This document shows positions 1,886-4,637 of a DNA stretch of 64,000 nt, in pieces (position 1 is the stretch's first letter; each line of letters starts with the position of its first letter). A program made the position numbers and the translations under genes. The notes below the pieces were generated by a model. The model saw only the letters and a list, made by a program, of their open reading frames with translations, was not told the DNA's origin and made no database searches. The stretch lies in NCBI RefSeq assembly GCF_009914755.1, contig NC_060948.1; one strand, 5' to 3'. This stretch comes from the human T2T-CHM13v2.0 reference genome, Homo sapiens.

Positions 1886-2002
1886 TACAAACTTGTATTC
1901 TTTGAGGACACAGATGTGAATAGATTAATTAGTAAGATGGTTTCGACACTGGAACTAGTTGTGATAATGCTGAGATGAAAAAAGATTGACCACTGGGCAT
2001 TA

Positions 2003-2373
2003 TTTTTTTTTTTTTTTTTTTTTTTTTTTGCACTTCCTGTTTCTCCCTTTTGAGGGATACACTTTTTTTTTTTTTTTTTTTTTTTTTTTTTTTGAGACGG
2101 AGTCTCGCTCTGTCGCCCAGGCTGGAGTGCAGTGGCGCGATCTCGGCTCACTGCAAGCTCCGCCTCCCGGGTTCACGCCATTCTCCTGCCTCAGCCTCCC
2201 GAGTAGCTGGGACTACAGGCGCCCGCCACCACGCCCGGCTAATTTTTTGTATTTTTAGTAGAGACGGGGTTTCACCGTGTTAGCCAGGATGGTCTCGATC
2301 TCCTGACCTCGTGATCCGCCCGCCTCGGCCTCCCAAAGTGCTGGGATTACAGGCGTGAGCCACCGCGCCCGGC
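2003..2373 (-). mobile_element. Young AluY with split tail (A-tract, 32-nt tag, A-tract)
   Basis: Body 2094-2373 matches the AluY consensus with CpGs intact; T-tracts at 2063-2093 and 2003-2029; tag at 2031-2062; TSD ctgggcattatt at 1993-2004 and 2373-2384. Confidence 0.97.
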
Positions 2374-2392
2374 TGGGCATTATTGAAAGGAG

Positions 2393-2700
2393 TTTTATTG
2401 AGATATAATTCACATATCAGATAATTAATTCATTTAAAGGCTGCAGTTTAATTTAATTTTATTTTTCAGTAATTTACAGGGCTGTACAAGCATCACCAGT
2501 TTCTAATTTTAGAATACATTTGTACCCCAGGAGAAAAAACTCCATACTCATTACAGCAGGCCCTCTCAACCTCTCTTCCCCTTCCACGCTTAGGCAACCC
2601 CAATCTACTTTCTGTCTGTAAATATATGCCTATTCTGAACATTTCAAATAAATGTCTTCTGTGACTGGCTGTTTTTGCTTAGATAATGTTTTTAGTCTCA
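2393..2700 (-). mobile_element. Old L1M (L1MB/MC-like) 3' end fragment
   Basis: ttttattgagatataattcacata ... aatctactttctgtctg ... tattctgaacatttca. Confidence 0.75.
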
Positions 2701-4637
2701 TCTGTTCCTCCTCTGTGCAACACAAACTTCCAGTCCAGTATCTCCCCATGGAGCACACACTTTTGTACCTCCCCTGTGCAGGACACGCTTCCTGTTTCTG
2801 CCATGTTCAGCTTATATGTTGTTTCTTTTTTGTGCAGGACACACTTCCTGTTCTGCCTTTGTGCAGAACACACTTCCTGTTCCTCTTCTATGCAGGACAC
2901 TTTCTGTTTCTCCCCTGTGCAGGTCATACTTCCTGTGTTTCCCCTGTGCATAACACACTTTCTATTTTTCCCCTGTGCAGCACCTATTTTTCTGTTCCTC
3001 CCCTGTGCAGGACACACTTTCTGTTACTCTCCTGAGACAGACAAACTTCATATCTCCCCTGTGCATGCCACTCTTCCTGTTTCTCACCTGTGCAGCACAC
3101 ACGTTCTGTTCCTCCACTGTGCAGGACACATTTCCCATTGCTCTCCAGAGACAGACACACTCCCTGTTTCTCCCCTGTGCATGCCACACTTCTTGTTTCC
3201 TCCTTGAATGGCCACCCTTTATGTTCTTCCTTTGTTAAGGACACACTTCCTTTTTCTCTGCTGTGCAGTACATACTTCCTTTTCTTGTGAGGGACACATC
3301 TTTTTTTCCTCTGTGCAGCATTCACTTTCCCTTTCTGTACTGTGCATGACGCCTCTCCTTTGTGTCCCCTGTTCATGAAACTTTTCCTGTTTCTCCCTGG
3401 TGCAGCACACACTGTCTGCTCCTCGTCTGTGGAGGACAGACTTTCTGATCCTCCCCTGTTCAGGCCACACTTTCTGTTTCATCCCTGAGCATGCTACACT
3501 TCTTGTTCTTCCACTGTGAAGCACACACTTTCAGTGTCTCTATTGTGCATACCACGCTTTCTATTTCTTCACTGTGCAACATACATTTTCTCTTCCTTCT
3601 CTGTGTGGGACACTCTTCCTGTTCCTCCCTTGTGCCTGTCACACTTCCTGTTGCTCCCCTGTGCAGGACACATTTCCTGTGTGTCCCCTGTGAGGACAAC
3701 ACTTCTGTTCCTCTTCTGTTCAGGACACACTTCCTGTTTCTCCACTTTGCCTGACACACTTCCTTTTTCTCCCCTTGCAGGACATATTTCCTGTGTCTCC
3801 TCTGTAAGGGCCACACTTCCTTTTTCTCCCCTGTGCAGCACACACTTTCTGTTTTCCCCTGTGTGGGACATACTTCCTGTGTCTCTCCTGTGTGGGACAT
3901 ACTTCCTGTTTCGTCTCTGCAAGACGCACTTACTGTATTGCCCCTGTGGGTTACAGGCTTCCTGTTTCTACTCTGTGGAATACACTTTTTGTTTCTCTCC
4001 TGTGCAGGACACACTTCCTGTTTCTCCCTTTTGAGGGATACACTTTTTTTTTTTTTTTTTTTTTTTTTTTTTTTTTTTGAGACGGAGTCTCGCTCTGTCG
4101 CTCAGGCTGGAGTGCAGTGGCGCGATCTCGGCTCACTGCAAGCTCCGCCTCCCGGGTTCACGCCATTCTCCTGCCTCAGCCTCCCGAGTAGCTGGGACTA
4201 CAGGCGCCCGCTACCACGCCCGGCTAATTTTTTTGTATTTTTAGTAGAGACGGGGTTTCACCGTGTTAGCCAGGATGGTCTCGATCTCCTGACCTCGTGA
4301 TCCGCCCGCCTCGGCCTCCCAAAGTGCTGGGATTACAGGCGTGAGCCACCGCGCCCGGCCCACTTTTTTTTTTTCTATCTTCTGCAACATTCATTTTTTA
4401 TTCCTCTTCTGTGCTGGACACACTTACTTTGTCTCTGCTGTGCAGGGCAAACTTCCTGTTTCTCCCTTTTGCCTGACATACTTCCTGTTTCTGCCCTGTG
4501 CAGGACACATATATGGCTTTCCCCCTGTGCACCACACACTCTCTGTTTCTCCCCTAGGCAGGACACGCTTTCTGTTACTCTCCTGAGAAAGACACACTTT
4601 CCGTTCCTCTCCTGTGCAGGATAAACTTCTTGTGTTT
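2700..4637 (+). repeat. ~29-bp satellite block 1 (pyrimidine-rich on + strand), contains an AluY
   Basis: Tandem diverged units of ACACACTTCCTGTTTCTCCCCTGTGCAGG. Confidence 0.95.
4044..4360 (-). mobile_element. Young AluY (AluYc1-like variant) inserted in the satellite
   Basis: T35 tail at 4044-4078; full body ending gcccggcc; TSD cac+T-run at 4041 and 4361; variant gcccgCTacc at 4212. Confidence 0.95.

What the first reader, a model, noticed from the sequence alone, without database searches (positions are those of the whole stretch)
1993..4374. Apparent Alu 3' transduction or local hop: an AluY carrying the 32-nt 3' flank of a neighbouring AluY
Seen: inside one TSD (ctgggcattatt, 1993 and 2373) the element reads, on the - strand, AluY, A31, GTGTATCCCTCAAAAGGGAGAAACAGGAAGTG, C, A27. 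The tag (2031-2062) is identical at 32/32 positions to 4012-4043, the sequence directly behind the tail of the AluY at 4044-4360. That Alu has its own TSD in the satellite, so the tag is native there. Established: 3' transduction is routine for L1 and SVA (Pol II), whereas Alu (Pol III) is normally primed in its own A-tail and loses the downstream flank. Inference: a read-through Alu RNA was ended at +32, re-adenylated and inserted 2 kb from its source. Caveat: the putative source differs at 4102 (T), at 4212 (T, the AluYc1-type change as I recall it) and by one extra T in the linker, while the putative daughter is consensus. A template-switch chimera of two Alu RNAs, a DNA-templated patch during integration, or later conversion of the source are therefore alternatives.
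Basis: partly seen in the sequence, partly recalled or inferred. Interest (0 to 1): 0.9.

Follow-up and report, generated by a model that had tools for sequence, protein, structure and literature searches.

The report
Alu tail patched from neighbour's flank
A young Alu on the human Y chromosome carries, inside its poly(A) tail, an exact 32-base copy of DNA lying next to another Alu 2 kb away; it looks like a rare Alu "transduction" but is more likely a local DNA-repair copy.

Summary
The Alu at 1993-2384 (- strand) reads, inside a perfect 12-nt target-site duplication (TSD): Alu body, A31, a 32-nt tag, C, A25-27. The tag equals 4012-4043, the native satellite flank behind the tail of the Alu at 4044-4360. 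With up to 2 mismatches it occurs only at these two places in the 3.1-Gb assembly.

The plain read-through transduction reading is not supported:
- **Different lineages.** The putative source is a Yc1-type Alu; both its substitutions recur in independent insertions on chr2, chr9 and chr10. The putative daughter has the common AluY base at both sites, so its body was not copied from that source.
- **No RNA end signal.** The Alu-sense strand has no T4 run for 1,504 nt beyond the source tail, and no AATAAA or ATTAAA.
- **Proximity.** Two copies 1,981 bp apart in direct orientation are about 6e-7 likely for a random retrotransposition landing.

Best reading (0.62): an ordinary AluY insertion whose long A-tail received a DNA-templated patch. 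An A-run 3' end primed on the neighbouring A35/T35 run, copied 32 nt of its flank, and was rejoined with one filler base. An RNA template-switch chimera, or a true transduction followed by gene conversion, are not excluded.

The parts
1993..2004 (-). 3' copy of the target-site duplication of Alu A (CTGGGCATTATT on the + strand)
   Evidence: Identical to 2373-2384. The chr9 paralogue shows the flanks contiguous here.
2005..2029 (-). Terminal A-run of Alu A (25 A; 27 with the two T of the TSD)
   Evidence: T run 2003-2029 = 27.
2030..2030 (-). Single filler or mismatched base (C on the - strand) at the non-homologous end of the patch
   Evidence: G here against A at 4011 in the donor.
2031..2062 (-). 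32-nt tag: copy of the donor flank
   Evidence: 32 of 32 identical to 4012-4043; only these 2 sites in the genome at up to 2 mismatches.
2063..2093 (-). Internal A31 run between the Alu A body and the tag
   Evidence: T run of 31.
2094..2372 (-). Alu A body, AluY-type, with no private changes among the Alus compared
   Evidence: Alignments. It has G (- strand) at both sites where B has A.
2373..2384 (-). 5' copy of the TSD of Alu A
4012..4043 (-). Donor of the tag: native 29-bp-satellite sequence directly behind the A-run of Alu B
   Evidence: Lies inside the TRF 29-nt array 2831-4045. Periodicity is continuous across B's empty site.
4044..4078 (-). A35 run at Alu B (about 24 A of tail plus 11 A of the 3' TSD copy): the proposed homology used for priming
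   Evidence: T run of 35; TSD CAC+T11.
4079..4360 (-). Alu B body, Yc1-type lineage (name recalled) with a second shared substitution
   Evidence: The 135-nt stretch 4090-4224 is exact only here and on chr2. There are 301 matches at up to 1 mismatch, and 98 of the 98 listed 1-mismatch hits keep the 4212 variant. Copies on chr2, chr10 and chr9 share both variants.
4361..4374 (-). 5' copy of the TSD of Alu B (CAC+T11 on the + strand)
   Evidence: Identical to 4041-4054.
2831..4633 (.). 29-bp satellite array into which Alu B inserted
   Evidence: TRF rows 2831-4045 and 4409-4633.

Best explanation
Alu A is an ordinary L1-mediated AluY insertion with a long A-tail. Alu B is an independent insertion of a Yc1-type Alu into the satellite 2 kb away, in the same orientation.

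The 32-nt tag entered A's tail by a local, DNA-templated copy, either after integration or while it was being completed. The proposed steps are inferred, not shown:
1. A break or stalled fork occurred in A's homopolymer tail.
2. This left a 3' end made of A's on the - strand.
3. That end paired with the nearest long complementary run, the T35 at B.
4. It was extended across the run boundary for 32 nt of B's flank.
5. It was released and rejoined to the other half of A's tail without homology, leaving one filler base.

This is synthesis-dependent strand annealing with end joining, or equivalently a replication template switch.

Shown: the anatomy, the direction (B's flank to A), the uniqueness of the tag, and that the two Alu bodies belong to different lineages. 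Inferred: that the template was DNA rather than RNA, and the order of steps.
For: 1. Different lineages. A and B differ at two non-CpG sites and one linker base.
- B's 4212 variant is a populated subfamily marker. There are 301 genome matches to B's 135-nt stretch at up to 1 mismatch. Of the 100 listed, 2 are exact and 98 of 98 spend their one mismatch at the 4102 site, so all keep the 4212 variant.
- Both variants together recur in three independent insertions (chr2, chr10, chr9), each with its own TSD and a pure A30-A41 tail. The chr2 copy is exact over all 135 nt.
- So B was born with these bases and A's body was not templated by B.

2. No RNA 3'-end signal. There is no T4 for 1,504 nt downstream of B on the Alu-sense strand, no T3 in the first 400 nt, and no AATAAA or ATTAAA.

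3. Geometry. Donor and copy are 1,981 bp apart in direct orientation. The homologous side of the patch is a homopolymer (A31 against A35) plus identical Alu 3' ends. The other side has no homology and a 1-nt filler.
- My arithmetic: a random landing within 2 kb either side, in the same orientation, is 4,000/3.117e9 x 0.5, about 6e-7.
- Even 386 genome-wide Alu 3' transductions (the number annotated in the Hoyt preprint) would give about 2.5e-4 such local cases.

4. Local DNA exchange between neighbouring Alus is documented. Gene conversion acts within about 10 kb and falls off with distance (Aleshin and Zhi 2010, as quoted in PMC8230782, passages). Short-range template switching is described in human genomes (PMC5453318, search listing and abstract start only).

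5. A is a true insertion. The chr9 paralogue (about 80% identity) has the two flanks contiguous, without Alu or tag.
Against: - No allele of A with an uninterrupted tail was seen; only one assembly was available.
- The layout Alu-An-flank-An inside one TSD is exactly the canonical layout of a 3' transduction.
- A one-base addition at a non-homologous junction is also what reverse-transcriptase template jumping leaves.
- I found no described case of a templated patch 2 kb from its donor inside an Alu tail. My attempt to search print for templated insertions in Alu tails failed on a term error and was not repeated, so this rests on no completed search.
- The proximity argument assumes that L1-mediated insertion has no local bias. 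That rests on general knowledge and was not tested here.
Confidence: 0.62

Rival explanations
1. RNA-level chimera made during target-primed reverse transcription. ORF2p started on a poly(A) stretch and jumped, adding one untemplated base, onto the 3' end of an RNA fragment from the B locus that ended at +32. It copied the tag into B's A-run. There it switched, by homopolymer pairing, to the tail of a different AluY RNA of the common type and finished on that RNA.
For: It explains the common-type body of A, the single TSD and terminal A-run, and the 1-nt junction base. B's Alu-sense strand has no terminator for 1,504 nt (first T6 at 2534-2539), so a Pol III read-through RNA containing the tag could exist. 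Wagstaff et al. say that template switching and polyadenylation of Alu transcripts 'may occur' (PMC3415434, passages).
Against: It needs three RNA templates and two switches. The tag RNA would have to end at a place with no signal. The composite would also have to land 2 kb from the tag's source in the same orientation, about 6e-7 if landing is random, unless nascent RNA tethered at B was captured, for which I know no precedent.
Confidence: 0.17
2. True Alu 3' transduction. A read-through transcript of Alu B ended at +32, was adenylated and was inserted by L1 2 kb away. Afterwards the body of A was gene-converted to the common AluY type over at least 133 bp, or B was converted to the Yc1-type.
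For: The anatomy is canonical for a transduction and the tag lies directly 3' of a same-orientation Alu. Gene conversion is said to explain 10-20% of the variation in young Ya5 Alus (Roy et al. 2000, as quoted in PMC8230782). The Hoyt preprint reports that 231 of 700 annotated transductions had a parent and offspring of different subfamilies.
Against: - All three differences would have to be erased towards the common type.
- B matches a rare lineage (exact only with the chr2 copy), so conversion of B is unlikely.
- There is no terminator or poly(A) signal at +32.
- Local landing is about 6e-7.
- A strict screen of 118,489 full-length AluY in this same assembly confirmed no Alu transduction (10.1101/2024.04.29.591526, whole text).
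Confidence: 0.09
3. Assembly artefact: the tag was placed in A's homopolymer tail by mis-assembly or polishing.
For: Long homopolymers are error-prone in long reads (general knowledge). No reads could be inspected.
Against: The patch is 32 nt of complex sequence with A-locus sequence on both sides. A mis-join at a homopolymer would give a chimeric junction, not an insert (inference).
Confidence: 0.03

Closest known systems
3' transduction by non-LTR retrotransposons (L1, SVA; AluSx3-WaluSat and 386 annotated 'Alu 3'' events in the Hoyt et al. preprint)
   Same: The layout is element, first poly(A), unique flank of a same-family element, second poly(A), all inside one TSD. The flank is identical to the sequence directly 3' of another copy.
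   Different: The body does not carry the putative source's lineage markers. The flank has no terminator or poly(A) signal at its end. Source and copy are 2 kb apart in cis. A strict AluY screen of this same assembly confirmed no event; its filters (a gap over 70 nt, TTTT after the segment, same subfamily) would have missed this case.
Non-allelic gene conversion or templated insertion between neighbouring Alus (Aleshin and Zhi 2010 as quoted in PMC8230782; short template switching, PMC5453318)
   Same: The donor is nearby in cis and is left unchanged. Entry is through homology, and orientation is direct.
   Different: What was copied is the donor's non-Alu flank, not Alu sequence. The homology is mainly a homopolymer. 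The exit is non-homologous with one filler base, so it is a one-sided, SDSA-like patch rather than a two-sided conversion tract.
Chimeric retrogenes made by L1 reverse-transcriptase template switching (U6-L1 type; recalled, not read here)
   Same: Several RNA-derived parts in one orientation within one TSD, with a terminal poly(A).
   Different: The middle part is only 32 nt, ends at no natural RNA 3' end, and comes from 2 kb away.

Membership tests
Alu SINE inserted by L1 target-primed reverse transcription (element A) | An Alu body of about 280 bp, near-identical to young genomic copies | tested here: met
   In the genome search with 1400-2830, most listed matches covering the Alu part of the query were 92-100% identical, the weaker secondary matches 71-89%. 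The alignment with 20 fetched Alus shows no private change in A.
Alu SINE inserted by L1 target-primed reverse transcription (element A) | Perfect TSD, a terminal A-run, and a T-rich/purine nick site | tested here: met
   12-nt TSD and an A25-27 terminal run. The + strand reads TTATT/GAAAGG at the nick, close to the 5'-TTTT/AA-3' quoted in PMC3415434. An empty-site proxy exists on chr9.
Retrotransposon 3' transduction | Extra unique sequence between two A-runs inside one TSD, matching the immediate 3' flank of another copy | tested here: met
   32 of 32 identical, starting at the first non-A base after B's A-run; unique in the genome.
Retrotransposon 3' transduction | The offspring body carries the source's diagnostic variants | tested here: not met
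   B has two lineage substitutions shared with the chr2, chr10 and chr9 copies, plus one linker base. A has none of the three.
Retrotransposon 3' transduction | A transcription end signal at the end of the transduced segment in the source (T4 or longer for Pol III, or a poly(A) signal) | tested here: not met
   The first T4-or-longer run is at +1505. No AATAAA or ATTAAA is present; only the A-run itself.
Local DNA-templated patch (SDSA, template switch, ectopic conversion) | Donor nearby in cis, direct orientation, homology at one edge, donor unchanged | tested here: met
   1,981-bp offset on the same strand. A31 against A35 plus identical Alu 3' ends. The donor remains in register with the satellite.
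Local DNA-templated patch (SDSA, template switch, ectopic conversion) | Existence of the unpatched allele (A with a continuous tail) | not testable with these tools
   Only one human assembly is held, and no ape or other human Y.
L1 RT template-switch chimera | The acceptor RNA ends at a natural 3' end where the jump occurs | tested here: inconclusive
   There is no terminator or processing signal at +32, but a degraded RNA end cannot be excluded.

The most novel reading that the evidence does not exclude
The composite is RNA-made after all. Either it is the first clean AluY-driven 3' transduction in a human genome, with a non-canonical RNA end and re-adenylation. Or ORF2p, while inserting an AluY, captured a nascent read-through RNA tethered at the neighbouring Alu. 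The second case would mean that L1 reverse transcription samples RNAs by nuclear proximity.
Probability: 0.22. Interest if true: 0.65.

Novelty: new member of a known kind. Interest (0 to 1): 0.36.

Why it matters
Whether Alu elements transduce flanking DNA is disputed in print. One preprint annotates 386 Alu 3' events in CHM13. A stricter preprint confirms none among 118,489 AluY.

This locus is a clean, datable test case. It has every structural hallmark that transduction callers use, yet fails the lineage, terminator and location tests. If the DNA-patch reading is right, it is a worked example of a false positive. It also argues for adding body-variant and cis-distance checks to such callers. 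If the RNA reading is right, it is a rare positive.

The locus lies in gene-free Y satellite DNA, so no phenotypic consequence is expected.

Tried and rejected
- **chrX paralogue (rejected).** The match chrX:43972339-43972723 seemed to extend beyond Alu A into its flank. It is a different Alu lying beside another copy of the same old interspersed repeat, and the junction does not align.
- **Genome search with whole Alu bodies.** The listed matches were all Alus (40 matches listed from 824 first-look candidates; 71 from 8,264). It is not a census, and I used it only to find carriers of B's rare words.
- **Wildschutte et al. 2015 (PMC4666360).** I recalled it as a possible report of Alu transductions. 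The word occurs once, in the reference list only.
- **Phrase search 'alu 3 transduction'.** 0 papers.
- **Print search for templated insertions in Alu tails.** It failed on a term error and was not repeated.
- **Chance origin of the tag in the satellite (rejected).** No other copy within 3 mismatches in the window or within 2 in the genome. Other arrays of this satellite on chrY and chrX are only about 70% identical.
- **Direction A to B (rejected).** The tag sits in register in the satellite at B and is absent from the empty-site proxy of A.
- **Not seen.** The supplementary tables of the two bioRxiv preprints (candidate lists) were closed. They might list this locus.

Full report
**What is there.**
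On the - strand, element A reads as follows:
- TSD at 2384-2373
- Alu body at 2372-2094
- A31 at 2093-2063
- a 32-nt tag at 2062-2031
- C at 2030
- A25 at 2029-2005
- TSD at 2004-1993

Element B reads:
- TSD (A11+GTG) at 4374-4361
- Alu body at 4360-4079
- an A35 run at 4078-4044, which is about 24 A of tail plus the 11 A of the second TSD copy
- GTG and the rest of the tag down to 4012

The tag is identical at 32 of 32 positions in the two places. At up to 3 mismatches it matches twice in the window, against 0.00 expected in 100 shuffles. At up to 2 mismatches it matches twice in the whole 3.117-Gb assembly, both times here; the reversed-pattern control gave 0.

**Direction of copying.**
- The tag lies inside a 29-bp satellite array (TRF rows 2831-4045 and 4409-4633).
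- With Alu B and one TSD copy removed in a script, lag-29 identity stays at 0.55-0.62 across the junction, against a mean of 0.61. The tag is therefore native at B.
- The two flanks of A have one paralogue, on chr9 at about 80% identity, where they are contiguous with no Alu and no tag.
- So A is a true insertion and the tag moved from B's flank to A.
- B's pre-insertion site already read A11 followed by the tag, so an A-run next to the tag existed even before Alu B arrived.

**Test of the transduction reading: are the bodies parent and child?**
- A and B differ at 4102, at 4212 and by one linker base. Neither substitution is at a CpG (read from the sequence).
- A genome search seeded on B's rare words returned Alus carrying the 4102 variant. 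I fetched the first 20 after B's own place in the list of 40. Three of them (chr2, chr10, chr9) also carry the 4212 variant, and each has its own TSD and a pure A30-A41 tail.
- B's 135-nt stretch spanning both sites is exact only in B and in the chr2 copy.
- At up to 1 mismatch there are 301 matches. Only 100 are listed: 2 exact, and 98 of 98 with their single mismatch at the 4102 site, so all 98 keep the 4212 variant. The other 201 were not shown.
- The 4212 change is thus a populated subfamily marker. I recall it as the Yc1 change; the name comes from no call. The pair of changes marks a small sub-lineage.
- B was born with both changes. A has the common base at both sites and no private change among the sequences compared. 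A's body was therefore not copied from B's body.

**Test of the RNA end.**
On the Alu-sense strand downstream of B there is no run of four T for 1,504 nt; the first is a T6 at 2539-2534. There is no T3 in the first 400 nt, and no AATAAA or ATTAAA. Nothing marks +32 as a Pol III or Pol II 3' end.

**Location.**
The copies are 1,981 bp apart in direct orientation. If L1-mediated landing is random, which is general knowledge and was not tested here, a hit within 2 kb either side in the same orientation has a probability of about 6e-7 (my arithmetic). Even the 386 Alu 3' transductions annotated in CHM13 (10.1101/2021.07.12.451456, passages) would give about 2.5e-4 such cases.

DNA-level exchange, by contrast, is local by nature:
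- Gene conversion among Alus is reported to act within about 10 kb and to fall off with distance (Aleshin and Zhi 2010, as quoted in PMC8230782, passages).
- Short-range template switching is described for human genomes (PMC5453318, listing and abstract start only).

**Best reading.**
A is an ordinary AluY with a long tail, later or at integration patched from DNA. A 3' end of A's from a break or stalled fork in the tail paired with the nearest long T run (B's T35). It was extended 32 nt into B's flank and was rejoined without homology, leaving one base.

This accounts for the following:
- the exact start of the tag at the first non-A base
- the homologous edge and the non-homologous edge
- the unchanged donor
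- the direct orientation
- the short distance
- the mismatch between the two bodies
- the lack of any RNA signal

It does not need Alu B as a transcription unit. The steps are inferred, and no intermediate allele was seen.

**Rivals.**
- An RNA chimera (poly(A), then a jump onto a B-locus RNA ending at +32, then a switch within the A-run to another AluY RNA) fits the anatomy. It needs three templates and a chance or tethered local landing.
- A true transduction needs an unexplained RNA end, a local landing, and then conversion of at least 133 bp. The Hoyt preprint does note that 231 of 700 annotated transductions had parent and offspring of different subfamilies, so a subfamily mismatch alone is not fatal.
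- An assembly error is unlikely for 32 nt of complex sequence flanked on both sides by the A locus, but no reads could be checked.

**What is in print.**
- Halabian et al. (10.1101/2024.04.29.591526, whole text) screened 118,489 full-length AluY in this same assembly and confirmed no transduction.
- Their rules required a gap over 70 nt between the Alu end and the poly(A), TTTT after the segment at the source, and the same subfamily. These rules would not have flagged this locus.
- They cite a short transduction by an Alu monomer (Kojima; not seen by me) and AluSx3-WaluSat (passages).
- Wagstaff et al. (PMC3415434, passages) show that new Alu inserts prime within the A-tail. They say that template switching and polyadenylation of Alu RNA may occur but are not the main processes.
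- The phrase search 'alu 3 transduction' found 0 papers.

**Verdict.**
The case is of modest interest: a convincing mimic of an Alu 3' transduction, useful for a live methodological dispute, in gene-free Y satellite DNA.

Noticed in passing
window 2831-4633 (+), 4643-6958 (inverted), 7865-11367 (+), 12118-12612 (inverted): A 29-bp satellite lies in blocks of alternating orientation. Related arrays at about 70% identity lie on chrY near 13.12 Mb and 17.95-17.99 Mb, and on chrX near 2.76 and 3.78 Mb. I did not identify the family.
   Followed up: partly
L003 (G000:C2:53640804-53641084), L004 (chr10), L005 (chr9), and window 4079-4360: A small Alu sub-lineage carries the Yc1-type change plus a second shared substitution. 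It has at least 4 members, with pure A24-A41 tails and intact TSDs. The chr2 copy differs from B by one CpG change and one linker base. It looks like a recently active minor source lineage.
   Followed up: partly
window 2534-2539: The first Pol III-type terminator (T6 on the Alu-sense strand) downstream of Alu B lies 1.5 kb away. That is only about 150 nt short of Alu A's insertion site.
   Followed up: no
L023 (G000:C9:143866947-143867409) against window 1862-2692: This is an about 80% identical paralogue of the DNA around Alu A. The part 2391-2655 also matches many loci at about 70% and so belongs to an old interspersed repeat, which I recall as an L1 3' end.
   Followed up: partly
window 1571-1868: An older, diverged Alu lies in the same orientation about 130 nt from Alu A (families D7, D12, D13). 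It is too diverged to have been the donor that made A's body the common type.
   Followed up: no
window 41758-42310: A long, imperfect (ATCT)n microsatellite of about 145 copies.
   Followed up: no
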